64,000 nt of DNA from assembly GCF_009914755.1 (NCBI RefSeq), contig NC_060926.1; one strand, written 5' to 3'. The notes below the pieces were generated by a model. That model was not told the origin of the DNA, did no database searches, and saw nothing but the letters and a program-made list of their open reading frames with translations. Within the stretch, counting starts at the first letter, position 1. Every line of letters starts with the position of its first letter. This DNA comes from the human T2T-CHM13v2.0 reference genome, Homo sapiens. Position numbers and translations under genes: made by a program. Positions 3,523 through 52,399 of this stretch are shown piece after piece.

Positions 3523-4602
3523 TATAGCATAGGTCAGAATAACCAAAAAAGTGAGTATAGACTGTGAAGGTATAGGGAAAATAAAATGATTAGTTTAATG
3601 AGCAGAAGATCAGAATGGATTCTTGGAAATGATTTTGAAGGATACTAAAAGGTCTTCTAGGCAGATGAGAACTGGTGGTCATTTTCTAAGCAGAGGAAAG
3701 AGATTATTCTTTCTAACTTTCTGAACCTAGGATGGTACTAAGAATTTACATTAAATTGACAAGAGGGACAATTACATAAAGATCTTAAAGTACATTTAGA
3801 GTTTTTTTTTTTTGACAAAGATCTATGCTTATGTACAAAGTAAAATCTTTTAGTTAGTACTGAAGCAATTTTGTTTTAATTATTCTGATTTTTATAAATC
3901 ACTTTGCTTCATGCTCGTCTTGTCTAAAAAGAATTTATAGCCTCTAAAACATACATTTAGAATGGATCAGGGGAAGGAGAAGTTCTGCAAGCTAAGAAAT
4001 ATAAAGATATGTCTAATATATTTTTATGTAACATTATGGCTAGTCATACTATTTTAGTTATTTGAAAGTATGTCCAATTATAATTTTCTGAATCTTAACT
4101 TCATTGAAGATTTAATGCGTTAACTTTTAAAAGAGAAATTCTGAAAAAAACAAATGACTTGGCTGTAGTTAAGCAACATTTTAGGTGTGATTGCTCTGAG
4201 CATGCCATTTTACAAACCACCAATTTACCAATAACATTAGACTATCATGGTTTTCCTTTAGGTTCACTTAAGTAGGCAGTACTTTTTTTTTTTTTCAAAT
4301 AACTGATTATGGAGAAGGAACATTCTAAAATTTTAATTGTGTCACTGTACTTTCAAAATTTAGATTACAAAGAATATATTTCCAGCCAACCCACATTCCA
4401 AAGCAAATCAGATGAATTAAAGAAAGGCTTTTTTTTTTTTTTTTTTTTTTTTTTTGCAATTGGACCTGTGTTTTCATCTCAGTAAGTACAACTCTGAAAA
4501 ATCATTTTCACTACTTTTAGAATCCCAGTATGTTCTTAAGTGGCTTTACCTGGTAGAGATAAAACTGGTGTTAGGAATTGGTCTAGCACAGGGAATATTT
4601 AA

Positions 4603-33339: not shown

Positions 33340-33895
33340 TGTATTAGTCAGGGTTCTCTATAGGGACAGAACTAATAGGATATATGTATACATGAAGCAT
33401 AGTTTATTAAGGAGTATTGACTCACACGATCACAAGGTGAAGTCCCAAAATAGGCTATCCCCAAGCTGAGGAGCAGGGAAGCCAGTCTGAGTCCCCAAAT
33501 CTCAAAAGTAGGGAAGCCGACAATGTAGCCTTCAGTCTGTGGTCGAAGACCTGAGAGCCTCTGGCAAACCACTGGTGTAAGTTCAAGAGTCCAAAAGCTG
33601 AAGAACTTGGAGTCTGATGTTCGAGGGCTGGAAGCATCCATCATGGGAGAAAGATGGAGGCCAGAAGACTCAGCCAGTCTAGTCCTTCCACATTCTTCTG
33701 CATGCTTTATCCTCACCATGCTGGCAGCAGATTGGATGGTGCCTACCCAGACTGAGGGTGGTTCTGCCTCTCTCAGTCCACTGACTCAAATGGTAATTTT
33801 CTTTTGTCACCACCCTCACAGACACACCCAGGAACAATACTTTGCATATACATCCATCCTTCAATCCAATTAAGTTGACAATATTAACCATCATA
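33340..33895 (-). mobile_element. HERV-L solo LTR (MLT2A2-like)
   Basis: tgtattagtcagggttctct...tattaaccatcata; perfect 5-bp TSD tatct at 33335-33339 and 33896-33900; ~555 bp. Confidence 0.92.
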
Positions 33896-37015: not shown

Positions 37016-37377
37016 TGATGTGTTTTGGCTGTGTCTCCACCCAAATCTCATCTTGAATTGTAGTTCCCATAATTCCCACGTGTTGTGTGAGGGATCTGGT
37101 GGGAAATAATTGAATCATAGAGGCAGTATCCCCCATACTGTTCTCATGGTAGTGAATAAGTCTCACAGGATCTGATGGTTTTATAAGGGGAAACCCCTTT
37201 CACTTGGTTCTCATTCTCTCTTGTCTGCCGCCATGTAAGACATGGCTTTTGCCTTCTGACATGATTGTGAGGCCTTCCCAGCCATGTGGAACTGTGAGAA
37301 CATTAAACCACTTTTTCTTTACAAATTACCCAGTCTCAGATATGTCTTTATCAGCAGCATGAAAATGGACTAATACA
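37016..37377 (+). mobile_element. THE1 (B/C-like) solo LTR
   Basis: tgatgtgttttggctgtgtc...ggactaataca; TSD gtgcc at 37011-37015 and 37378-37382. Confidence 0.95.
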
Positions 37378-38982: not shown

Positions 38983-41290
38983 TGCATTAGGCTAGTCTTT
39001 CATTGCTTTCAAAAAATTCCTGAGACTGAATAATTCAATAAAGAAAAAAGGTTTAATTGGCTCATGGTTCTGCAGGCTGCAGAAACATGGTGTTGCTATC
39101 TGCTTAGCTTCTGGGGCGGCCTCAGGGCGCTTTTACTCATGGCAGAAAGTGAAGCAGGAGCAGGCACTTCGCTTGTCTTAAGCAGGAGCAAGGGGGTGGG
39201 CAGGAGCCACACACTTTCAGGAAACCAGATCTCCTGAGAATTTACTCACTATCTCAAGGACAGCACCAAGCCATGAGGGATCTATTCCCATTACCCAAAC
39301 ACCTCCCACCAAGCCCAAGCCCAACATTGCAAATTCAACATGAGAATTTGTAGGGCACATATTCCAACTATATAATTCTGTCCATGGTCCCTCCAAACCT
39401 CATGCATGTCCTTCTCATATTGCAAAATACAATCATACTTTCCCAACAGTCCCTCAAAGTCTTAAGTTGCTCCAGCATAAACTCAAAAGTTCTAAGTCCC
39501 AAGTTCAAATCCAAAGTCTTATCTGGAGATGAGTTTATTCTACCTACAAGCCTGTAAAATCAAAACAAGTTACTTACCTCGAAGACATAATGGAGGTACC
39601 AACATTGGCTACAAATTCCCATTTCAAAAGTCAGAAATTGGCCAGAAGGAAGAGGCTACAGGCCTCACACAATTCTGAAACCTAAAGCTTCATAGTAGTC
39701 TCCTTTGACTTCATGTCCCACATCTTGGGCACACTGGTGCAAAGAATAGGCTCCCAAGGCCTCGAGCAGCTCCACCCCTACGTCTTCGCAGGGTTCAGCA
39801 CCATGACTGCTCTCACAGGTCATTGACTGCACGCAACTTTTCCAGGTAGGTGCTGGCTGAAACCTGCCAGTGGAGCTTCCATTCTGGGTTCTGGAGGATG
39901 ATGTCCTCCTTTCCACAGCTCCACTAGATGGTGCCCCAGTGGAAACTCTGTGTGAGGACTCCAACCTCATAGTTCCCCTCCACACTATCTTAGCAAAGGT
40001 ACTCTGTGAGGGTTTCACCTCTGTGGCAGGCTTCTGCCTGAGCACTCAGGCTTTCTCATACATCCTCTGAAATCTGGGTGCAGTTGGTGAAGCCTTCACT
40101 CTTGCACTCTTTGCGCTCACAAGCTTAATACCACATGGAAGCTACCAAGGCTTTTGGCTTGCATTCTTCAAAGTGGCAGCTCAAACTCTACCTGGGTCCC
40201 TTTGAGCCCTGGTAGGAGGTGGAGCAGCCAGGATGTGGGGAGCAGTGTTCCAACATTGTTCAGGGCAGCAGGGCTTGGCCCAGGAAACCATTCTTCCTTC
40301 CTAGGCCTCTGGGCCTATGATGGAAGGGTCTGTGGTGAAGGTCTCTGAAATGCCTTTGAGGCCTTTTTCCCATTATCTTGGATATTAGTACTCGACTCCC
40401 CTTTAATTATGTAAAATCTCTAGTACATGGTTGCTCCGCAGCCTGCTTGAATCCCTCTCTTGAAAAAGCTTTGTCCTTCATTGCCACATGTCTAGCCTGC
40501 AAATTTTTCAAACTTTTATGCTCTGCTTTCTGTTTAAATATAAGTTCCAAAGGTAAATCATTTATTTGCTCCTGCATCTGAGTATAGGTTGTTAGAAAGA
40601 GCCAGGCCACATCTTGAATGTTTTCATGCTTAGAAATTATGTCCACCAGATATTCTGGGTCATTACTCTCAAGTTCAAACCTCATCAACCTGAATATCAC
40701 TATCCATATTACTATTTGCATTTTAGTCACAATCATTTAACCAGTCTTTAAGAAGTGGCAGACATTCTCTTATCTTCCTATCTTCATCTGAGCCCTCCAA
40801 ACTCTTTCAAACTCTGCTTGTTACCCAGTTCCAAAGCTGATTCCATATTTTCATGTATCTTTATAGCAATGCCTTGGTACCAGTTTTCTGTGTTAGGCTG
40901 TTCTTGCATTGCTATAAAGAAATACATGAGATTGGGTAATTCATAAGGAAAAGAATTTTGATTGCCTCACGTTTCTGCTGGCTATAAAAGCATGGCACCA
41001 CCATCTGCTTGGATTCTGGGGAGATCTCAGAGTACTTTTACTCATGGAAGAATGTGAAGCAGGAGCAGATACCTCACATAGTAAAAGCAGGAGCAAGAGG
41101 GTAGGAGGAGCCACAGAGTTTTAAGCAACCAGATCTTGTGGGAACAATAACTCACTCACTTTCTCAAGGACAGCACCAAGCCATGAGGAATCCACCCCCA
41201 TGACCCAAACACTTCCCAACAGGCCCCACATCCAACATTGGGGATTACAAATCAACATAGATTTGGAGGGGACATATTCTAACTATATTA
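38983..41290 (-). mobile_element. Two-LTR MSTB-like MaLR provirus: LTR 38983-39375, internal 39376-40888, LTR 40889-41290
   Basis: Two matching LTRs (aaggacagcaccaagccatgag); MaLR-int ORF remnants; flanks tacat / tatat. Confidence 0.9.
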
Positions 41291-41861: not shown

Positions 41862-42372
41862 ATTTTCATCTCAAATGCTTCCAACATGGTGCTGGATTTC
41901 CATCTCCAAGTCTATATTTACATTTTTAGACTTTCCAGTAAACCCCTGCATTTCCTGTGATTACATTCATTTTGTTGCTGTCCTGGAGGCTAAGATGACA
42001 TAGCAAAAAGTACTCTCTGTTCCTTCTTAATGAGCCAACTTCTGAAAGCAAAATGAGGCAGACACATTTAGGGTGGAAAACACATTCTTGAAGACAATAT
42101 TTTGCTAATTATGTGCAGTAGAGGGTCAATTTTCTGAATTTGAACTGCAAGAGAGAAACTTACCCTTTAATTATGGAAATGTTCCAGGGTGAGAGAAATG
42201 AAGGAGCTGGCACTATGCTACTCTCTAACACTAGCCTAGACAAAATGCCCAAGCTCCATAAGGGTCAGTCTGCAGAGATCTTGTCTTCCCATAGAAATTC
42301 TATCTTGTCTTCCAAGCACAGTCTAAGTGCCTTGGTTTGATTCCAGATTTTGATACTTTCAAAGTCTGTAAC

Positions 42373-42800
42373 TGTGATGGTTAATACTGATTGTCAACTT
42401 GATTGGATTGAAGAATGCAAAGTATTGACCCTGGGTGTGTCTGTGAGGGTGTTGCCCAAGGAGATTAGTATTTGAGTCAGTGAGCTGGGAAAGGCAGACC
42501 CACTTTTAATCTGGGCGGGCACAGTCTAATCAGCTGCCAGCACAGCCAGAATAAGAAAGGCAGGCAGAAGAATGTGAAAAGACTAGACTGGCCTCCCAGC
42601 CTCCATCTTTCTCCCATGCTAGATGCTTCCTGTCCTCGAATATCTGACTCCAAGTTCTTCAGCTTTGGGACTCAGACTGGCTTCCTTGCTCCTCAGCTTG
42701 CAGACAGCCTATTGTGAGACCTTGTGATTGTGGGAGTATATATATTGTGTGAAATATATATATTTCCTATTAGTTCTGTCCCTCTAGAGGACCCTAAATA
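42373..42800 (+). mobile_element. MLT2A1 (HERV-L) LTR occupying the 5'-LTR position of a THE1 element
   Basis: tgtgatggttaatactga...cttgattggattgaag...cctctagaggaccct; homologous (inverted) to the HERV-L LTRs at 44583 and 50671. Confidence 0.93.
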
Positions 42801-44582
42801 GATATTGGTACCAGTAGAGTGGGTCACTGCTGTAGATACCCAAAAAATGTGGAAACAACTTTAGAACTGGGTAATGGGCAGGGTCTGGAACAGTTTGGAG
42901 AGCTCAGAAAAAGACAGGAAAATGTGGGAAAGTTTGGAACTTCCTAGACACTCGTTGAGTGGCTTTGCCCAAAATGCTGATAGTGATATGGACAATAATG
43001 TCCAGGCTGAGGTGGTCTCAGATGGAAATGAGGAGCTTGTTGGGAGCTGGAGCAAAGGTGACTCTTGTTATGTTTTAGCAAAGAGACTGGTGGCATTTTG
43101 CCTCTGCCCTACAGATTTGTGGAACTTTGAACTTGAGAGAGATAATTTAGGGTATCTGGCAGAAGAAATTCCTTTTTTGTTGTTTGTTTGTATGAGACAA
43201 AGTCTCGCTCTGTTGCCAGGCTGGAGTGCAGTGGTGCAATCTTGGCTCACTACAACGTCTGACTCCCTGGTTCAAGTGATTCTCCTGCTTCAGCCTCCTG
43301 AGTAGCTGGGATTACAGGCACATGCCACCACACCCAGCCAATTTTTGTATTTTTAGTAGAGATGAAGTTTCACCATGTTGGCCAGGATGGTCTCAATCTC
43401 CTGACCTCGTGATCTGCCCATCTGGCAGAAGAAATTTCTAAGCAGCAAAGCATTCAAGATGTGATTTGGATGCTGTTAAAGGCATTTAATGTTATAAGAG
43501 AAGCAGAGTGTAAAATTTTGGAAAATTTGCAGCCTGACAATGCAATAGAAAAGAAAATTCCATTTTCTACGGAGCAATTCAAGCCAGCTGCATAAATGTG
43601 CATAATTAATGAAGAGTCAATGTTAATTACGAAGATAATGGGGGAAAATGTCTCCATGGCTTGTCAGAGATCTTGGCAGCATCCCCTCCCATCACAGGCC
43701 TGGAGGTTTTGGAGGAAAAAATGGTTTCATGGGCTGGGCCCAGGTTCCCTCTGCTGTGTACAGTCTAATGACTTGGTGTCCTGCATCCCAGCCACTCCAG
43801 TCGTGACTAAAAGAGGTCAAGGTACATCTCAGGCTGTTGCTTCAGAGGGTGGAAGCCCCAAGCCTTGGCAGCTTCCACATGGTGTTGAGCCTGCAGGTGC
43901 ACAGTAGTCAAGAATTGAGGTTTGGAAACCTCTGCCTAGATTTCAGAGGAGGTATGGAAATGCCTGGATTCCCAGGCAGAAGTTTGCTGCAGGGGCAGAG
44001 CCCTCATGGAGAACCTCTGCTAGGGCAGTGCAGAAGGGAAATTTGGGGTCAGAGCCCCCACACACAGTCCCTAGTGGTGTACTGCTTAGTGAAGCTGTGA
44101 GAAGAGGGCCACCATCCTCCAGACCTTAGAATGGTAGATCCACTGACAAGTTGTACAGTGCACCTGGAAAAGTTGCAGATATTCAGCACCAGCCCATGAA
44201 AGCAGCCAGGAGAGGGGCTATATCCTGCAAAGCCACAGGGAAGGAGCTGCCCAAGACCATGGGAACCCACCTCTTGCATAAGGTGACCTAAATGTGAGAC
44301 ATGTAGTCAGAGGAGATCATTTTGAAGCTTTAAGATTTGACTGTTTTGCTGGATTTTGTCTTGCATGGGGCTTGTGGCCTCTTTGTTTTGGCCAATTTCT
44401 CTCACTTGGAATGGCTGTATTTACCCAATGCCTATATCTGCATTCTATTTAGGAAGTAACTAACTTGCTTTTGATTTTACAGGCTCATAGGTGGAAGGGA
44501 CTTTCCTTGTCTTCAATGAGACTTTGGACTGTGGACTTTTGGGTTAATGTTGAAATATTTTAAGACTTTGGGGGACTGTTGT
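42801..44582 (+). mobile_element. THE1 internal sequence (5' and main part; continues at 51114-51177)
   Basis: ttggtaccagtagagtggg...aatgtggaa...ggaaaatgtgggaaagtttggaacttcctaga; MaLR ORF remnant RKMWESLELPR...AEVVSDGNEELVGSWSKG. Confidence 0.93.
43171..43419 (-). mobile_element. 5'-truncated AluSc-like element inside THE1-int
   Basis: tcgctctgttgccaggctgg, gacctcgtgatc; 17-bp TSD atctggcagaagaaatt at 43154-43170 and 43420-43436. Confidence 0.93.
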
Positions 44583-45500
44583 TGTATTAGTCAGTGTTCT
44601 CTAGAGGTACAGAATCAATGGAATATATATATATATATACAAATATGGGAGTTTATTAACTCATATGATCACAAGGTCCTACAATAGGCTGTCTACAGGC
44701 TGAGGTGCAAGGAGAGCCAGTCCAAGTTCCAAAATGGAAGAACTTGGAATCTGATGTTCTAGGGCAGAAAGCATCCAGCATGGGAAAAAGATGTAGGTTG
44801 GGAGGCTGGGCCAGTCTTTCTTTTCACATTTTTCTGTCTACTTATATTCTAGCTGTGCTGGCAGCTGATTACATTTTGCCCACCTAGATAAAGGGTGAGT
44901 CTGCCTTTCCCAGCCCATTGACTCAAATGTTAATCTCCTTGGCAACACCCTCATAGACACACCCAGGATCAATGCTTTTTATCCTTCAAGCCAATCAAAT
45001 TGACGCTCAATATTAACCATCACAGGTCCACTCCTGTCCATTTCAACCCATACACATCTTCGAAGATCATACATAATCTTCAAGTAAAGAGAGTAATAAG
45101 GTCATAATTATGCCTAACATAATACAACTGTCTTTCGTACAACCAGAAATGCAGCAATCCTCAACCCAAATAGTATTACATAAAGTTAACAATACCTAAA
45201 TGCTGATGTGAAGTCAATAAATCTTATGTCACATGATAACAAAGAAAGACAATAAAATGAAGATATTTTCTTAGTACAAGTATATATATGCACAAATACA
45301 TTTTTTAACAAAAGAAGGAGGAAATACTCATGACAATTACAGTCCTCATTTTTGCAGCTGGTCACATGGTTATAGCTGGAATTGATGACTACCTTCTTCT
45401 ACTACTCATTCTGTATTCCCTTTGCCTTCAGCAAGCACCTCAGCAGGTTGTGTGGTTTTTTTTTGTTTGTTTGTTTGTTTGTTTGTTTTTTGTTTTTTCC

Positions 45501-45901
45501 TCACGGAGTGTCCCAAACCTTCATTTCTGAAGGTTCTGCATCATTTGTAGTCCTGCCTGGATTGGGCTGTTGTAGTTTCTCATTGACCTTAATCACAGGG
45601 CATGGTGATACTAAGAGACACCCTAATGGACCTCCTGTATTCCATGCATATTTGTCCTTACCTGAATAAGGAGGTAGTATACTGATTTCATCTTGATAGT
45701 TCTGGTCAGTCACCCCAGCCAACACTGTAACTCCTTCTTAGCCTGTAAACTTAAATGTAGGAGGAACCCAAAGTGTCTAGGTGGCAATCTTAACTTCCAA
45801 TTTAATGGAATTGTTGTTGTGTCTCCTGGTGGCAGCGTTCCTCCCTCTGGAACTAAGACCTCTAGGAGAGCAGAATGTAATGTCATGGGAACAGGAAACA
45901 A
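45501..45901 (-). pseudogene. dut: HERV-L dUTPase remnant
   Basis: LEVLVPEGGTLPPGDTTTIPLNWKLRLPPRHFG and LAGVTDQNYQDEI...WNTGGPLGCLLV; frameshifted; lies downstream of integrase as in ERV-L. Confidence 0.85.
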
Positions 45902-45917
45902 AAATTTTGCTAGTGGA

Positions 45918-48800
45918 TCATGGGGTGATGGTAAGTGGTGCCACTTCTACTTCCATCCCTTGATTCCTGGACCCATGAATACTTGCTATGGGAGAAAGAG
46001 TACCATATGCTGGATGCTGATGCAGAGCATACACAGCCTTCTGGAGAACTTTGCCCCAGCCCTGCAAAGTATTGTCACCTTGTTGGCATTGTAATTGTGA
46101 CTTCAAAAGGCCATTCCACAATTCTATCAATCCAGCTGCCTCAGGATAATGGGGAACATGGTAAGACAATGAATTCCGTGAGCATGAGCCCACTGCCACT
46201 CTTCTTTAGCCATAAAATGAGTGCCTTTGTCAGAGACAATGCTGTGTGGAATACCATGACAGTGGATAAGGCATTTCAAGAGTCCACGGGTGGTAGTCTT
46301 GGCAGAAGCATTGCATGCAGGACAGGCAAACCCATATGTGAAGAAAGTATCCATTCCAGTGAGGACAAACCTCTGCCCTTCCCATGATGGAAGAGGTCCA
46401 ATATAATGAGCCTGCCCCCAGGTAGCTGGCTTATCACCCCAAAGAATGGTGCCATATTGAGGGCTCAGTACTGGTCTCTGCCGCTGGAAAACTGGGCACT
46501 CAGCAGAGGCCATAGTGGGTCTGCTTTGGTGGGTGGAAGTACATGTTGCAGAGCCCATGGGCAACCTCCATCCTTCCCACCATGGCCACTTTGTTAATGG
46601 GCCCATTGGACAGTGACAGGGGTGGCTTGGGAAAGAGGCTGAGTAATGTCCACAGAATGGGTCATCCTATCCACTTGATTATTAAAATCCTCCTCTACTG
46701 AGGTCACCCTGTTGGTGAGCACTCACATGGGATACAAATATCTTCACAGTTTTTGGCCACTCAGAGAGGTCCATCCACATACCTCTCCCCCACATTTATT
46801 TGTCACCAATTTTCCAATCATGCTTCTTCCAAGTCCTTGACCATCCAGCCAAACAATTGGCTACAGCCCATGAATCAGTATATAATCACACATCTGGCCA
46901 TTTTTCCTTCCAGGCAAATTGCACAACCAGATATACTGCTCGAAGTTCTGCCCACTGGGATGATTTCCCTTCACCACTATCCTTCGGGGATGTCCTAGAA
47001 AGAGGCTGTAGTGATGCAGCTGTCCACTTTTGAATGGTGCCTGCATATTGTGCACAGAACCATCTATTAAATAGGTCCTAGTCTTCTCTCCCTCTGTCAT
47101 GGGAAACTTTCCATGAGTCCATCAGTGCAGGTTGTTGGAGAGAAGGCAGGGTGGCCAGAGTGGAGACCATGGACATCGAGCCACTTCCTCATGTAACTTC
47201 CTTGTACTTTCAGGACCTGCTCGAGCCTGATCACATATACACCACTTCCATTAGATGATGGAATGCTGCTGTGCATGACCCACTTTATGGCTAGATGGGT
47301 CAGAAGGCACTCAGTTCATGATAGGCAGTTCAGGTAGCATGGTGACTTGATGGCTCATAGTCAAACATTCAGTTTCCAGCGGAGCCCAGTAACAAGTCAA
47401 GAGCTTTCTCTCAAAAGGAGAATAATCTGCAGAAAATGGCAGGGCTTTGCTCCAAAATCCTAGAGGCCTCCACTGTGATTCACCTATGGGGTCCTGCCAA
47501 ATGCTCCAAACAGCATCCCTATCTGCCATTGACACCTCAAGCACCATTGGATCTGCTGGGTCATATGGCCCAAGTGGCAGAGCAGCAGAACAGCTGCCTG
47601 GACCTGTTGCAGAGCCTTCTGTTCTGGACCCCATTCAAAACTGGCAGCTGTTCAGGTCGCTCAATAAATGGGCCAGAGTAACACTCCCAAATGAGGAATG
47701 TGTTACATCCAAAAATCCAAATAGGCCCACTAAGCATTGTGGCTCTTTCGTGGTTGTAAGATGGGTCAAATGCAGCAACTTATCTTTCACTTTAGAAGGA
47801 ATATCTCAACAGGCCCCACTTCACTGAACCCCTAGAAACTTTACTGAGTTAGAAGGTCCCTGAATTTTAGTTGGATTTATTTCCCATCCTCTGCCATGCA
47901 AATGTCTCACCAACAAGTCCAGTTTGTTTGCTACTTTTTGCTCACTGGATTCAATCAGCATAATGTCATCTGTATAATGGACCAGTGTGATATCTGGCAG
48001 AAGAGGAAAGCAATCAAGGTCTCTCCAAATAAGATTGTGACACAAAGCTGGAGAGTTATATACTCCTGAGGTAACACAGTAAAGGTATAGTGCTGGCCTT
48101 GCCAGCTGAAGGCAAATGGCTTCTGGTGGGCCTTATGGACAGGAATGGAGATCAATGGCTTCATACCAGGTACCAGAAGATGTGTTAATTTGCTCAAGCA
48201 ATGAAAGCACTCTGGTACAGCAACTGCAATTGGAGTCACCACTTGGTTAAGCTTACAATAACCCACTGTCATTCTCCAAGATCCATCTATCTTCTGCACA
48301 GGTCAAATGGGAGAGTTGAATGGGGATGTGGTGGGAATCAACACCCCCATGTGTTTCAAGTCCTTGATGGTGGCACTAATCTCAGCAATCCCTCCAGGGA
48401 TGTGATATTGTTTTTGATTTATTATTTTTCTAGGTAGAGGCAGCTCTAATGGCCTCCATTTGGCCTTTCCCACCATAATATCCCTCACCCTACCAGTCAG
48501 GGAGCCAATGTGGGGTTTCTGCCAGCTGCTAAGTATTTCTATGCCCGTTATACATTCTGGCACTGCATAAATAACTACAGGATGAGTCTGGGGACCCACT
48601 GGACCCACTAGAAGTTGGACCTGAGCTAAAACTCCATTAATTCACTGACCTCAATAAGCCACTATTTAAGTGGCAGACCACAATGACGGTTTGTGTACCC
48701 TGGAATCAACATCAGCTCAGAGACAGTATCCATTGGTCCCCAAAATGTCTGATCATTTTCCTTTCCCCAATGCACAGTTACCCTGATAAAAGGCCAGAGC
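45918..48800 (-). pseudogene. pol: HERV-L pro-pol remnant (protease, RT, RNaseH, integrase) with multiple stops and frameshifts
   Basis: Protease site GPMDTVSEL (~48711-48740); [41 protein letters not shown] (RT); RPLGFWSKAL; YLIDGS (RNaseH); YIGPLP, HGIPHSIVSDKGTHF, YPEAAGLIELWNGLLK (IN). Confidence 0.92.
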
Positions 48801-48849
48801 TTTCCTTGGGGAAGGATGGGAGAAAGATTTACTGCATAAATTGTCGGTA

Positions 48850-50626
48850 ATATAGTATAGTCCTTCCTCTAGGGGACCTGGCCTCCCCTTCATTCAAGGG
48901 GTTCTGGGCTTGTAAACTGACTCATGTCTGGAACTTGATTAAGGGGTCATGATTCTGTTTTTATAATTCAAACTTGTCTTTTGTCAATGCAACCTAGAAG
49001 TTTTCTGCTTATATAAATTAAGTAGGAGTGCAGTAGAATTCCTATCAATTTCATTTCTAGGAACACTGTGATTAATTAGTCAATGCAGAGGTCTACACAA
49101 GTCAGACTATTCTGATTGCCACTTTGCCTCTACTGTCCATTACAGTAGCTATGCCCACGTTGCCTTTGATGGCTCAGTGCTGCCAGTTGGCCCTTGCCAC
49201 CTACAATTATTCTTATTGTATTTAAATTTTGTAGTTGAGTGAGTGTCTGTGGTTCCCATGGTTAGATCTGACATACAGAGAAGAGCAATTACAGGGTTCT
49301 CCAAAGATGCAGGTGCTGCCCTCACAAGTCTATTTCACAAGGCATTGGTCAAGGGTATAGCTTCTGGACCATCCCAGCTGGAATGAATAGGTCTAAAGTG
49401 ACTAATCCACTCCACCATCCCAATGTCCCTAAGCCTTTGGATTCCTTCCTCTATATTAAACCAAGGGAGATCAGGCATTTCCAGCTCACTCACAGTGGGC
49501 CAACTTTTAATCCAAGTTTCAGCTAACCAAAGCAAATAAACTATTCGAACCTTTTTTACCTCCCTGAGATGCAACATTAAATGCAGGGTCTCTACTTAGT
49601 GGGCCCAAATCCATAAATTCAGACTAATTCAATTCTATCTTACTTCTACCATTATCCCACATCCTTAATATCCATTTCCATGCCTATTCTTCAGGTTTCT
49701 GTTTATATAAATCAGAAAACTCAAGCAGTTCTTTCTGAGTGTAAGGCACCTCTTCATGGATCACACTCTCAATCTTATGTTTAGGAGCCCACCAATACTT
49801 TAGTCTAGTTATAGGTCTAGGAGCAAACAGGGGTGTTGGGGGTTGCTCCTGAGGAGAATCAACATTACCTTGCCTGGCAACGGCCTCAGGGGTGACCATC
49901 ACTGTTCCCTCAGGCAGTGCAGGGTGTATCTCCTCAAACAAAGCCGAAAGGCTGACGGAAGCGTGGGCCAGGAAGGGGATGTTGCCACTACTGGGGATGG
50001 GGAAGCTGTTTCTTCTGTCAAAAGAGGTTCATCAGAGTTTACAAACTCAGTGTCCTCAGCTCCATCAGGGTCCTCCCACATGCCCCTATTCCAAGTTGCA
50101 GGGCCCCATTCTTTTCCAATCATTGCCCTCACTTTAACAGTAGACACCTGGAGAGGCTGTGCACGCACCTTTTGTTGCATCAGCCACTCACACAATAAGA
50201 CATTGTGTCTGTTTTTTCCACAATTTTAGCTCTCTCTCTACAGGAGATAAGACTCTCACTCAGGGCAATCTTAGCAGGTTTGAGGCTCAATATCTGCTTC
50301 TGAAGCCAGGAGATAGAATCCTTAAGTTTATCATTTTCTCTCATCACTTTGTCCACTGAACTCAGGAGGAACCAACCAGCTTCGTTATGTTCCTGGGTTC
50401 TCCACATATGGTCAAAGGTATTATGTATAGAGTCACTAAACTCCTTGCCTCTCATGACCGATGAATCAGGAGTGTCAAATGCATTTATTTTGCATAACTC
50501 TCTAAACAGTTCATGCCAAGTACTATCAGTGTTCATACTCTTAAAAGTAGAGTCCTTAGCATTTTTGGGTCTAATCACATTAAGTGGCCAACTCCAGAAG
50601 CCCAAAAACCAATGAAAAAGCTCCAT
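48850..50626 (-). pseudogene. gag: HERV-L gag remnant, fragmented
   Basis: STWHELFRELCKINAFD, VKVRAMIGKEWGPATWNRGMWEDP, WPTVSELEMPDLPW..EEGIQRLRDIGMVEWI. Confidence 0.88.
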
Positions 50627-51177
50627 CCTTAATATTCTATTCCTCTAGAACCACTCCTGGTATCAAAATCTGTATCAGTCAGGGTTCTCTAGAGGCACAG
50701 AATTATATATATATATATTCCATATATATAAAGGAGTTTATTAAGTATTAACTCACATGATCACAAGGTCCAATAGGCTGTCTGCAGGCTGAGGAGCAAG
50801 GAGAGCCAGTCCAAGTCCCAAACTAAGTAACTTGGAGTCTGATGTTCAAGGGCAGGAAGCATCCAGCACAGGTGCAAGATGTAGGCTGGGAGGCTAGACC
50901 AGTCTCTCTTTTCACATTTTTCTGCCTGTTTATATTCTAGCTACATTGGCAGCTGATCTGACTGTGCCTTCCCAGATTTCCGGTGGTTCTGCCTTTTCCA
51001 ACTCACCAACTCAAATGTTAATCTCTTTTGGCAACACCCTCACAGACACATCCAGGATCAATACTTTGCATCCTTCAATCCAATCAAGTTGACATTCAGT
51101 ATTAACCATCATAGTTGGGAAGGCATGATTGGTTTTGAAATGTGAGAACACAAGATTTGGGAGGGGCTGGGGCAGAA

Positions 51178-51529
51178 TGGTATGGTTTGGCTTTGTGTCC
51201 CCATCCAAATCTTATCTTGAATTGTAGCTCCCACATATTCCATATGTTGTGGGAGGGACCCGGTGGGAAATGATTGAATCATGGGGGCAGGTCTTTCCTG
51301 TGCTGTTTTCATGATAGTGAATGAGTCTCAAGAGATCTGATGGTTTTGTAAGGGGGAGTTTCCCTGTACAAGCTCTCTCTTTGCCTGCTGCCATCCATAC
51401 AAGATGTGAGTTGCTTCTGTTTGCTTTCTGCCATGATTGTGAGGCCTCCCCAGCCATATGAAACTTCTTTCTTTTGTAAATTGCCCAGTCTCCAGGTGTT
51501 TATTAGCAGTGTGAAAACGGACTAATACA
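51178..51529 (+). mobile_element. THE1 (A/B-like) 3' LTR, preceded by the THE1-int tail and PPT (51114-51177)
   Basis: gggaggggctggggcagaa|tggtatggtttggc...aaaacggactaataca. Confidence 0.95.
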
Positions 51530-52399
51530 GTAGCCTTGTGTAATGAAACTGGCCGTACCATAACTTAATTTTCTAATTTGTAAGACAGAGATATTCACAT
51601 GTCACATGGAATGCTTAGAATGTGAAATGTGGGGGCATGGGCTCAGCAGAGCCCAGCTGTTGGCATGCCCTTCTGTCCCACTGGCCTCTTCATGGAGGGC
51701 ATTGTGAGGAACCAGTTGATAAGCTCTTCCTTCCAGGTGATGTTTTTAGGTAAGCCAGGGAGCTATTAGAGGTACACTGTCATCTCTGCCTAGAATAAAT
51801 AGTCGTGCTGCAAATTTTAAGTCAGAACAGAAGGGATGTAGGCTCTGCCTGGCATAGCATCATTAGCTGGCTGCCTAGTAAACCTGCCCAATTTCCATGA
51901 ATCTCCACCAGCACTACCCTGATGATGAACTTATTGTGATGGAAGAAAAGGAAGAAAAGAGAAAGAACTGCGTTACTGACAGCACACCATCTGCTTACAC
52001 ATGTCACATGGAGGCTGTGGCGAGGGCTGCAGAGAGAGCTGGCCATGACAGGGTGGTTGTCAACATCAACACAATCAATAACTCTGGTCTGTCTCTTCTC
52101 TGCCAAATGTGCCATCCCTCCAAAATCCTTACTGGTTGTAAAATGTCATCATCATCATTAATGAGCGTGAAGTAAATTACTGATAGAAAAGAAAAGTTTA
52201 ACAAAAGGTAGCATATGACATAATAGTTTCAAATTAAAGGCTGAATATTACTATTTATGAAATCATTTCACAACTGTTTTATGCAACACACTTTCCTGGA
52301 ATGCCATGTCTTTTAGTGAGAAGGTGGCAAAGGAAAGTGGCCCAGTTGATTGGCTTTGATGTAATTGCCTGGTCCTATAGCACAGAGTCAAAATCCCAG

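What the first reader, a model, noticed from the sequence alone, without database searches (positions are those of the whole stretch)
42368..51534. Chimeric provirus with discordant LTRs: HERV-L MLT2A1 5' LTR + THE1 body + THE1 3' LTR, joined at the shared PBS motif
Seen: the THE1 internal sequence (42801-44582, 51114-51177) ends in a THE1 LTR (51178-51529) but has no 5' THE1 LTR. A complete same-strand MLT2A1 LTR (42373-42800) sits flush in its place. The junction reads ...ccctaaata|gatattggtaccag|tagagtggg. The first 14 nt resemble the post-LTR sequence of the HERV-L in this window (gattttgataccag). The sequence then switches to THE1-int at the ttggtaccag motif common to both families (the MSTB here has gaaaactggtacca). 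The outer flanks are gtaac (42368-42372) and gtagc (51530-51534), a 4/5 TSD match of the ERVL/MaLR 5-bp size. The MLT2A1 differs from both nested HERV-L LTRs at positions those two share (agtctagtcttttcacattctt vs agtctYtcttttcacattttt), so it is not a copy of them. Known: MaLRs lack pol and are thought to be mobilised by ERV-L; normal reverse transcription yields identical LTRs; plus-strand strong-stop DNA (U3-R-U5-PBS) transfers via PBS pairing. Inference: intermolecular second-strand transfer in a particle co-packaging HERV-L and THE1 RNA would give exactly this structure, a molecular fossil of helper-parasite co-packaging.
Basis: partly seen in the sequence, partly recalled or inferred. 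Interest (0 to 1): 0.82.

Follow-up and report, generated by a model that had tools for sequence, protein, structure and literature searches.

The report
Provirus with two unrelated LTRs
This element has a HERV-L LTR at its front and a THE1 body and rear LTR, went into the genome as one piece, and is one of at least eleven such hybrids in the human genome, so it is physical evidence that the pol-less MaLR elements were reverse-transcribed alongside HERV-L.

Summary
Window 42373-51529 is an MLT2A-type (HERV-L) LTR, then a THE1/MaLR interior joined at the primer-binding site, then a THE1-type 3' LTR. GTAAC/GTAGC flank it. An Alu and a full HERV-L inserted into it later.

It is not a one-off. The same genome holds 10 more loci with this architecture. 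Both ends were read at 9 of the 11, and the flanking 5-mers could be compared at 8. They match 5/5 at five loci and 4/5 at three. Each hybrid therefore integrated as one unit, which excludes neighbouring insertions plus a deletion.

The MaLR 3' LTRs of the hybrids fall into at least 5 well-supported clades, so the hybrids arose repeatedly and are not copies of one founder. About 9 hybrid junctions compare with 2,348 ordinary MaLR 5' junctions at the same search stringency. No swap was found at the 3' LTR, against 5,548 ordinary 3' junctions.

Reciprocal hybrids also exist: MaLR 5' LTR, HERV-L leader, MLT2A 3' LTR.

Best explanation: plus-strand strong-stop DNA from one co-packaged genome transferred to the other's minus strand through the shared U5-end/PBS block. 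Eight literature searches found no description. Primate orthologues and a Dfam census were not available.

The parts
42368..42372 (.). Left copy of the target-site duplication (GTAAC)
   Evidence: It matches GTAGC at 51530-51534 at 4 of 5 positions.
42373..42800 (+). Complete MLT2A-type (HERV-L) LTR standing in the 5' LTR position
   Evidence: It is 428 nt long and 85-87% identical to the two LTRs of the pol-bearing nested HERV-L; it interleaves with ordinary HERV-L LTRs in a tree.
42801..42805 (+). 5-nt spacer GATAT between the LTR end and the PBS; it has the HERV-L length, not the MaLR length
   Evidence: Ordinary HERV-L has GATTT. Ordinary MaLR has the 6-nt GTAAAT.
42806..42825 (+). Primer-binding-site-like block TGGTACCAGTAGAGTGGGTC, in the MaLR version with a 2-nt TA insertion
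   Evidence: The same block follows the 5' LTR in 2,348 pattern matches of ordinary MaLR copies.
42801..43172 (+). MaLR (THE1-type) interior, first part
   Evidence: 84-90% identity to the 5' ends of about 25 other MaLR interiors.
43173..43419 (-). Later Alu insertion with its own ~15-nt duplication
   Evidence: Other MaLR copies align straight across the gap.
43420..44582 (+). MaLR interior, second part
44583..51113 (-). Later nested HERV-L provirus, with LTRs at 44583-45027 and 50667-51113 and flanks GTTGT/GTTGG
   Evidence: RVT_1, RNase H-like and integrase-core matches on the minus strand.
51114..51177 (+). MaLR interior, last part, with the purine-rich tract just before the LTR
51178..51529 (+). 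THE1-type MaLR 3' LTR
   Evidence: It sits inside a 100/99-supported clade of ordinary MaLR LTRs.
51530..51534 (.). Right copy of the target-site duplication (GTAGC)

Best explanation
The element is a hybrid provirus assembled before integration, inside a particle or at least a cell that held both a HERV-L genome and a MaLR (THE1) genome.

Proposed steps:
1. Both RNAs were copied into minus-strand DNA.
2. Plus-strand strong-stop DNA was made on the HERV-L minus strand. It carries MLT2A U3-R-U5, the spacer and a PBS copy.
3. It annealed to the PBS/U5-end complement at the 3' end of the MaLR minus strand instead of its own.
4. Extension of both strands gave MLT2A LTR - PBS - MaLR interior - MaLR LTR.
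5. Integrase inserted this as one unit with a 5-bp duplication.

A hybrid of this kind cannot breed true, because its RNA would have unlike R regions at its two ends. Each hybrid locus is therefore a separate event.

Shown here: the architecture, the single integration, the recurrence, the independent origins, the position and polarity of the junction, and the existence of the reciprocal class.

Inferred: co-packaging, and strand transfer by reverse transcriptase as the joining step.
For: 1. Architecture at the window.
2. Ten more loci have a full MLT2A-type 5' LTR joined to a MaLR interior: 4 loci; 4 more; 2 more.
3. Both ends were read at 9 of the 11 loci. Flanking 5-mers match 5/5 at 5 loci: AACCT, CCACT, GTACC, CATGG and AGGCA. 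They match 4/5 at 3 loci: the window and ACACT/ATACT, and CATAT/TATAT. One locus has a truncated 3' LTR end. Two random 5-mers match at 4 or more positions with probability 16/1024.
4. Independent origins. In the tree of 38 MaLR LTRs, the 8 hybrid 3' LTRs need 8 changes, and starred branches force at least 5 origins. The 9 hybrid interiors need 9 changes among 38 rows. The 9 hybrid 5' LTRs interleave with HERV-L LTRs.
5. Junction. Nine of 11 hybrids carry a 5-nt HERV-L-length spacer and 2 of 11 carry the 6-nt MaLR spacer. In 93 of the 100 HERV-L rows listed the spacer is GATTT. In the 100 rows listed the MaLR spacer is GTAAAT-type, by eye.
6. Polarity, at equal stringency (12+18 specified bases, up to 3 mismatches).
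   - 5' side: 9 hybrids among the 21 matches, against 2,348 ordinary MaLR junctions.
   - 3' side: 0 of 31 matches join a MaLR interior to an MLT2A start.
   - 3' side: 0 of 9 matches join a HERV-L interior to a MaLR start.
   - 3' side: ordinary MaLR 3' junctions number 5,548.
7. Reciprocal class. Four loci have a MaLR 5' LTR joined to the HERV-L leader. Three of them end in an MLT2A LTR where it could be read. Two of them have 4/5 TSDs: GATGT/AATGT and ACATC/GCATC.
8. HERV-L was active after this THE1 hybrid arrived, because a HERV-L is nested in it.
Against: - Nothing here shows co-packaging or the enzyme step directly. The sequence record gives only the product.
- In the simplest form of the model the spacer should always come from the LTR donor. 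It does not in 2 of 11 forward and 2 of 4 reciprocal hybrids. Those need a minus strand that ran on past the PBS, or a heteroduplex resolved either way.
- Three of 11 forward hybrids share GATAT, which is rare among HERV-L copies (3 of the 100 rows listed). This is unexplained.
- The shared U5-end/PBS block may be the only long homology between the two families. DNA-level recombination would then also land there, so junction position and polarity do not separate the two routes.
- Standard accounts hold the second strand transfer to be intramolecular (review PMC5086612, passages read).
- The window's own TSD is 4/5, not 5/5.
- Two reciprocal loci share one internal deletion. That sits uneasily with strictly independent events.
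Confidence: 0.78

Rival explanations
1. The two unintegrated DNAs (HERV-L and MaLR cDNA) were joined in the same cell before integration by cellular homologous recombination or repair, not by reverse-transcriptase strand transfer.
For: It gives the same product and the same single TSD. The junction lies in the only long block seen to be shared by both families, namely the U5 end GACTAATACA plus spacer plus PBS. Crossovers are spread over that block rather than fixed at the PBS: 2 of 11 forward and 2 of 4 reciprocal hybrids carry the acceptor-type spacer.
Against: The shared block is only about 35 nt, which is short for cellular recombination. The PBS is exactly where the replication scheme already requires a strand transfer. 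Three of 4 reciprocal hybrids lack the HERV-L polypurine tract. That is expected if a foreign strong-stop DNA completed a genome unable to prime its own plus strand. None of this is decisive.
Confidence: 0.12
2. Post-integration origin: a MaLR provirus landed next to or inside an older MLT2A LTR or HERV-L, and a deletion, ectopic recombination or gene conversion then removed the 5' MaLR LTR.
For: Both families are abundant and nest in each other, and a HERV-L is nested in this very element. MLT2A and MaLR LTR ends share about 11 nt.
Against: The 5-mer before the MLT2A LTR equals the 5-mer after the MaLR LTR at 8 of 8 assessable loci, 5/5 at five of them. Two separate insertions would not give that. 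The junction is base-precise at 11 loci. No 3'-side counterpart was found: 0 of 31 and 0 of 9 matches.
Confidence: 0.03
3. One founder hybrid arose once and then multiplied as a small family that keeps its unlike LTRs.
For: Three hybrids share the rare GATAT spacer. Two reciprocal loci share one internal deletion join. The interior tree is almost unresolved, with only 2 starred branches.
Against: Hybrid 3' LTRs lie in at least 5 strongly supported MaLR clades. The window's interior carries the CTGTAGATACC variant, while 8 of the other 10 carry CTGAAAAGATACC-type (L048 and L060 differ in this stretch). The 5' LTRs are not clustered, with 113 of 500 shuffles as low. By the standard replication scheme, RNA from such a provirus has unlike R regions and would give progeny with identical LTRs.
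Confidence: 0.05
4. Chance juxtaposition or mis-reading of repeat boundaries, so there is no real feature.
For: No Dfam or RepeatMasker run was possible, so family names are unverified.
Against: BLAST colinearity runs from the first LTR base to the last. The control patterns read backwards gave 0 matches in every pattern search. The TSDs match.
Confidence: 0.01

Closest known systems
Retroviral recombination between co-packaged RNAs (template switching and strand transfers during reverse transcription)
   Same: It needs two different genomes in one particle, and exchange occurs at homologous sequence. Review PMC5086612 (passages read) lists dimerisation, co-packaging and template switching as the required steps.
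   Different: Ordinary recombinants have two identical LTRs. Here the LTRs belong to two families, which requires the second (plus-strand) transfer to be intermolecular. The review passage cites a model in which that transfer is intramolecular. The review of recombination in LTR retrotransposons, PMC6894440 (passages read), names the first transfer and internal switching as the recombinogenic steps, not the second transfer.
Mosaic HERVs such as Harlequin, HERV18/HERVL32/HERVL66 and 'env snatching'
   Same: They are hybrids between ERV families fixed in the human genome. Sources: PMC5753468, passages read; PMC4724089, passages read.
   Different: Those are families that multiplied after recombining inside the coding region, and each has matching LTRs. 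The elements here are single-copy dead ends with unlike LTRs and a junction at the PBS. PMC4724089 treated most MaLR-containing chains as software artefacts and left MaLR outside its scope.
Complex LTR-retrotransposon insertions made by template switching in Triticeae (Sabot and Schulman 2007, PMC1950507)
   Same: [quoted passage not shown]
   Different: Those are large elements in which two elements share an LTR. Here there is a one-for-one swap of the 5' LTR between a helper and its non-autonomous dependant. Only the abstract was read.
Proviruses with mismatched LTRs from ectopic recombination between integrated HERV-K copies
   Same: The two LTRs of one provirus have different ancestry.
   Different: As recalled, those have non-matching target-site duplications because two integrated loci recombined. 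Here the duplications match.

Membership tests
ERVL-MaLR provirus (THE1/MST type) | MaLR LTR at both ends | tested here: not met
   The 3' LTR is MaLR-type. The 5' LTR is MLT2A-type.
ERVL-MaLR provirus (THE1/MST type) | Interior of about 1.6 kb colinear with other MaLR interiors and without pol | tested here: met
   colinear with about 25 copies over 42801-44582 once the Alu is removed; 51114-51177 matches the interior's end. The window's own interior was not compared with the HERV-L interior, nor scanned with Pfam. In the BLAST no HERV-L interior match was reported in the four hybrid loci L031-L034.
ERVL-MaLR provirus (THE1/MST type) | 5-bp target-site duplication | tested here: met
   GTAAC/GTAGC, 4 of 5. 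Seven other hybrids match at 4/5 or 5/5.
HERV-L provirus | MLT2A-type LTRs at both ends and a gag-pol interior | tested here: not met
   Only the 5' LTR is MLT2A-type, and the interior is MaLR. For contrast, the nested element at 44583-51113 has both LTRs and RT, RNase H and integrase matches.
Product of intermolecular plus-strand strong-stop transfer | Complete foreign 5' LTR, with the 3' LTR matching the interior | tested here: met
   LTR alignments start at base 1 of the MLT2A LTR at 10 of 11 loci. L078's LTR start lay outside the fetched stretch. All 9 loci whose 3' end was read end in a MaLR LTR.
Product of intermolecular plus-strand strong-stop transfer | Junction at the PBS or in the homology next to it | tested here: met
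   all 11 forward and 4 reciprocal junctions lie between the last ~11 nt of U5 and the PBS.
Product of intermolecular plus-strand strong-stop transfer | One target-site duplication around the whole hybrid | tested here: met
   Eight of 8 assessable forward loci and 2 of 2 assessable reciprocal loci at 4/5.
Product of intermolecular plus-strand strong-stop transfer | No exchange of the 3' LTR alone | tested here: met
   Zero of 31 and 0 of 9 pattern matches, against 5,548 ordinary 3' junctions. Pattern sensitivity limits this.
Product of intermolecular plus-strand strong-stop transfer | Spacer always inherited from the LTR donor | tested here: inconclusive
   Donor-length spacer in 9 of 11 forward and 2 of 4 reciprocal hybrids.
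Product of intermolecular plus-strand strong-stop transfer | Both RNAs in one particle and both reverse-transcribed | not testable with these tools
   This needs an experiment.
Ectopic-recombination provirus | Flanking duplications that do not match | tested here: not met
   The duplications match.

The most novel reading that the evidence does not exclude
The unlike-LTR hybrids are a genome-wide fossil record of intermolecular second-strand transfer. If so, they give the first direct sequence evidence that MaLR RNAs travelled in the same particles as HERV-L RNAs. They also give a rate, roughly 4 hybrids per 1,000 MaLR proviral 5' junctions. The exchange ran both ways: HERV-L deletion derivatives that had lost their polypurine tract could complete DNA synthesis only by borrowing strong-stop DNA from a MaLR partner. 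That would explain why 3 of 4 reciprocal hybrids lack that tract and why two of them share one deletion.
Probability: 0.45. Interest if true: 0.82.

Novelty: new variant of a known kind. Interest (0 to 1): 0.74.

Why it matters
MaLRs make up about 4% of the human genome (figure quoted in PMC10735291, passage read) and encode no polymerase. That ERV-L supplies their machinery is a long-standing assumption (recalled) resting on sequence likeness.

A class of proviruses that carry one LTR from each family inside a single target-site duplication shows more than likeness. It shows that replication intermediates of the two families met and were joined before integration. That makes the helper-dependant relation testable and countable from genome sequence alone.

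The hybrids also document, in nature and repeatedly, a strand-transfer outcome that one model cited in a standard review treats as intramolecular. And they flag a source of mis-annotation: MLT2A 'solo' LTRs abutting MaLR interiors are not independent insertions.

Tried and rejected
- Neighbouring insertions plus deletion, ectopic recombination and gene conversion: rejected on the TSDs.
- Segmental duplication of one hybrid: rejected. Alignments stop at the first LTR base, and identities between hybrids (78-87%) are no higher than to ordinary copies.
- A link between the 5' MLT2A LTR and the nested HERV-L in this window, through inversion or conversion: dropped. None of the other eight fully read hybrids showed a nested HERV-L interior; BLAST against the HERV-L interior gave no hit in seven, and L077 also gave none.
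- One candidate reciprocal locus (C13:59961221) was false. Its interior is MaLR.
- Four regions fetched at +4.8 to +7.3 kb to find the 3' ends of reciprocal hybrids missed three of them, because those elements are short. Nearer stretches were fetched instead.
- The 3' end of the C15 reciprocal hybrid dissolves into TA repeats, so no TSD can be read.
- The C2 reciprocal locus has a spacer and a PBS-like block after its MLT2A end, and its TSD could not be assessed.
- The 3' ends of two forward hybrids (C21:20745294 and C23:149710830) were not reached.
- Subfamily naming and orthologous primate loci were not possible, because no repeat library and no other primate genome was held.
- Literature: 8 full-text searches and passages or abstracts of 7 papers gave no description of MLT2A/MaLR unlike-LTR proviruses. 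Subscription journals and the early MaLR and HERV-L papers are outside that library. No supplements were opened, including the tables of PMC4724089.

Full report
OBSERVATION

- A 428-nt LTR starting TGTGATGGTTAAT occupies 42373-42800 on the + strand.
- It runs without a gap into GATAT TGGTACCAGTAGAGTGGG and a MaLR interior at 42801-43172, 43420-44582 and 51114-51177.
- The interior ends in a MaLR LTR at 51178-51529.
- The flanks are GTAAC and GTAGC.
- Two later insertions interrupt the interior. One is an Alu at 43173-43419 with its own ~15-nt duplication. The other is a 6.5-kb minus-strand HERV-L at 44583-51113 with flanks GTTGT/GTTGG. The HERV-L has RVT_1, RNase H-like and integrase-core matches in the order expected for pol (only RVT_1 passes Pfam's cut-off).
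- The 5' LTR is 85.3% and 87.0% identical to the two nested LTRs, which are 85.8% identical to each other. It is therefore the same kind of LTR, but it lies in the opposite orientation and has its own flanks.
- Subfamily names (MLT2A1, THE1) could not be checked, because no repeat library was held.

RECURRENCE

Searching the window's own assembly with 200 nt across the junction gave four other places that match on both sides of it.
- BLAST of the fetched loci showed the same layout in all four: a full MLT2A-type LTR from its first base, a MaLR interior, and a MaLR 3' LTR.
- Two pattern searches for an MLT2A 3' end followed by the MaLR version of the PBS added four more. One search gave 21 matches: 9 hybrids, 6 ordinary MaLR, 5 HERV-L-type and 1 spurious.
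- A pattern for the other PBS version added two.
- The total is 11 loci including the window. The backwards-read control patterns gave 0 matches in every search.

SINGLE INTEGRATION

Both ends were read at 9 of the 11 loci. The 5 bases before the MLT2A LTR and the 5 bases after the MaLR LTR compare as follows.

| Locus | 5' flank / 3' flank | Match |
|---|---|---|
| L031 (C21:23.76M) | AACCT / AACCT | 5/5 |
| L032 (C11:74.95M) | CCACT / CCACT | 5/5 |
| L033 (C7:149.02M) | GTACC / GTACC | 5/5 |
| L046 (C20:15.07M) | CATGG / CATGG | 5/5 |
| L048 (C3:105.58M) | AGGCA / AGGCA | 5/5 |
| window | GTAAC / GTAGC | 4/5 |
| L034 (C3:19.87M) | ACACT / ATACT | 4/5 |
| L077 (C8:126.94M) | CATAT / TATAT | 4/5 |
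| L044 (C6:82.21M) | 3' LTR end truncated | not readable |

Two random 5-mers agree at 4 or more positions with probability 16/1024, and 8 of 8 readable loci do. Each hybrid therefore entered the genome as one DNA with an MLT2A left end and a MaLR right end. This removes deletion between neighbours, ectopic recombination and gene conversion as explanations.

INDEPENDENT ORIGINS

- In a maximum-likelihood tree of 38 MaLR LTRs, the 8 hybrid 3' LTRs need 8 label changes. Branches with support of at least 95/80 force at least 5 origins. Four sit on each side of the deepest, 100/97-supported split, and the window's own lies in a different half from four others.
- The hybrid interiors are scattered: 9 changes for 9 rows among 38. 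That tree has only 2 well-supported branches, so it says little.
- The hybrid 5' LTRs interleave with LTRs of ordinary HERV-L copies: 5 changes, and 113 of 500 shuffles are as low.
- The window's interior carries CTGTAGATACC where 8 of the other 10 hybrids carry CTGAAAAGATACC-type; L048 and L060 differ in this stretch. Both variants are common among ordinary copies.
- By the standard replication scheme, RNA from such a provirus would have unlike R regions at its ends and could not reproduce the unlike-LTR state.
- Together these points argue against a multiplying founder.

JUNCTION AND POLARITY

- Ordinary HERV-L reads ...CTGACTAATACA GATTT TGGTACCAGGAGTGG. There are 314 pattern matches, and among the 100 rows listed 93 have GATTT and 3 have GATAT. 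That pattern fixed GAT and the last T, so only the fourth base was free.
- Ordinary MaLR reads ...GGACTAATACA GTAAAT TGGTACCAG(TA)GAGTGGGG. Both PBS versions, with and without the TA, are common in MaLR.
- The two families therefore share about 35 nt: the U5 end, the spacer and the PBS.
- All 11 hybrid junctions lie inside that block. Nine have a 5-nt spacer of HERV-L length: GATAT three times, GATTT twice, and GATGT, GAAAT, GGTAT and ACTTT once each. Two have the MaLR GTAAAT.
- Counts at equal stringency (12 + 18 specified bases, up to 3 mismatches):

| Junction searched | Matches |
|---|---|
| MLT2A 3' end to MaLR PBS (5' hybrids) | 9 hybrids among 21 matches |
| MaLR LTR to MaLR PBS (ordinary 5' junction) | 2,348 |
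| MaLR interior to MLT2A LTR start (3' hybrids) | 0 of 31 |
| HERV-L interior to MaLR LTR start (3' hybrids) | 0 of 9 |
| MaLR interior to MaLR LTR start (ordinary 3' junction) | 5,548 |

- If the 5' rate of about 0.4% held at the 3' side, about 21 cases would be expected there. These are pattern counts, not copy numbers. The anchors differ between the searches, so the comparison is rough.

RECIPROCAL HYBRIDS

A pattern for a MaLR LTR end followed by the HERV-L leader gave 88 matches. Most were ordinary MaLR copies with the TA-less PBS, and five were candidates. Four were confirmed at the 5' junction as a full MaLR-type LTR followed by the HERV-L leader. The fifth was false.

| Locus | Structure after the MaLR 5' LTR | Flanks |
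|---|---|---|
| C6:146.05 Mb | Leader 1-537, then MLT2A LTR from base 20 to its end | GATGT / AATGT (4/5) |
| C5:63.78 Mb | Leader 1-610, then MLT2A from base ~229 to its end | ACATC / GCATC (4/5) |
| C2:179.56 Mb | Same leader-610/LTR-230 join as C5, but a spacer and PBS-like block follow its MLT2A end | not assessable |
| C15:56.01 Mb | HERV-L interior with two deletions through to its end, then an MLT2A LTR that dissolves into TA repeats | not assessable |

The join shared by C2 and C5 was found only in those two among the 40 best candidates scored, of 2,651. Three of the four reciprocal hybrids lack the HERV-L polypurine tract.

MECHANISM

In the accepted scheme of reverse transcription (established knowledge), the 5' LTR of the final DNA is copied from plus-strand strong-stop DNA. 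That DNA is itself a copy of the 5' end of a minus strand. Two unlike LTRs can therefore arise during replication only if the strong-stop DNA made on one minus strand lands on the PBS complement of another.

That predicts the following, and all were found:
- a complete foreign 5' LTR;
- a junction at the PBS;
- a 3' LTR that matches the interior;
- one TSD around the whole;
- no 3'-only swaps;
- reciprocal products.

It requires that a HERV-L RNA and a MaLR RNA were in the same particle and that both were copied. That step is inferred, not shown.

Hybrids with an acceptor-type spacer (2 of 11 forward, 2 of 4 reciprocal) need a small extension of the model. Either the acceptor minus strand ran on past the PBS into the shared U5 end, or the mismatched duplex was resolved either way. 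From memory, experiments with PBS-mutant murine vectors described such extended minus strands; I did not see those papers here.

The missing polypurine tracts fit a simple idea. A HERV-L deletion RNA that cannot prime its own plus strand can be completed only by a partner's strong-stop DNA. That would also let one source RNA give two hybrids with the same deletion (C2 and C5). This is an inference resting on four loci.

The main rival is joining of the two unintegrated DNAs by cellular recombination. It gives the same product and is not excluded, because the U5-end/PBS block may be the only usable homology.

COMPARISON WITH THE LITERATURE

- Reviews of ERV recombinants list Harlequin, HERV18, HERVL32 and HERVL66 (PMC5753468, passages) and 'env snatching' (PMC4724089, passages). 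All of those are multiplying families with matching LTRs.
- PMC4724089 set MaLR aside.
- The 2023 study of primate MaLR succession does not mention HERV-L, MLT2 or chimeras. It says its model ignores recombination (PMC10735291, term search and passages).
- A review of recombination in LTR retrotransposons names the first strand transfer and internal switching as the recombinogenic steps (PMC6894440, passages).
- A review of co-packaging cites a model with an intramolecular second transfer (PMC5086612, passages).
- A plant study proposes template switching for complex fused elements (PMC1950507, abstract).
- Eight full-text searches found no account of MLT2A/MaLR unlike-LTR proviruses. The library lacks most subscription journals, and no supplements were opened, so prior description cannot be ruled out.

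VERDICT

The window's element is one member of a recurrent class of helper/dependant hybrids. Each was made anew and each was integrated once. I rate it a new variant of a known kind (retroviral recombination) with interest 0.74. The remaining doubt concerns the enzyme step and whether the class has been described in print.

Noticed in passing
G000:C2:179556151-179559350 and G000:C5:63778751-63781950 (loci L064+L079, L080+L066): Two reciprocal hybrids at unrelated sites share the same internal join: HERV-L leader base ~610 to MLT2A LTR base ~230. They are 83% identical overall. Among the 40 best candidates scored, only these two span that join. A shared PPT-less source RNA is one idea, but it is not shown.
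   Followed up: partly
window 42801-42805; L031, L034 junctions: Three of 11 forward hybrids have the spacer GATAT. That spacer is seen in only 3 of the 100 ordinary HERV-L junction rows listed and is not the MaLR spacer. It could be a crossover two bases before the PBS, or a rare donor subfamily.
   Followed up: partly
genome-wide: MaLR interiors come with two PBS versions: one with a 2-nt TA insertion (2,348 pattern matches) and one without (dozens of rows). How the inserted version persisted through many rounds of copying, when the plus strand copies the primer tRNA, is not obvious.
   Followed up: no
L058 = G000:C19:16034211-16037264: An MLT2A LTR and a PBS are followed directly by a second copy of the last ~45 nt of the LTR, and no interior follows.
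   Followed up: no
L059 = G000:C20:63862793-63865846: An MLT2A LTR with a 6-nt MaLR-length spacer (GTACAT) is followed by HERV-L interior starting at about base 4226. This is an internally deleted HERV-L with a MaLR-like spacer.
   Followed up: no
L023 and L024 = G000:C1:108427614-108430711 and C1:108330488-108333585: Two MaLR copies about 100 kb apart in opposite orientation are identical over the interior stretch and nearly identical in the LTR. This is probably a recent inverted segmental duplication.
   Followed up: no
window 37021-37377; 33587-33893 (-); 40875-40888 (-): The window also holds a solo MaLR LTR with no PBS after it, a further MLT2A-like LTR fragment on the minus strand, and a minus-strand MaLR LTR-PBS junction that reads GAAAACTGGTACCA.
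   Followed up: partly
L044/L061 = G000:C6:82212505-82216100: This forward hybrid has lost about the last 10 nt of its 3' LTR. The flanks read TCCCC and TCCTC but cannot be placed in register.
   Followed up: partly
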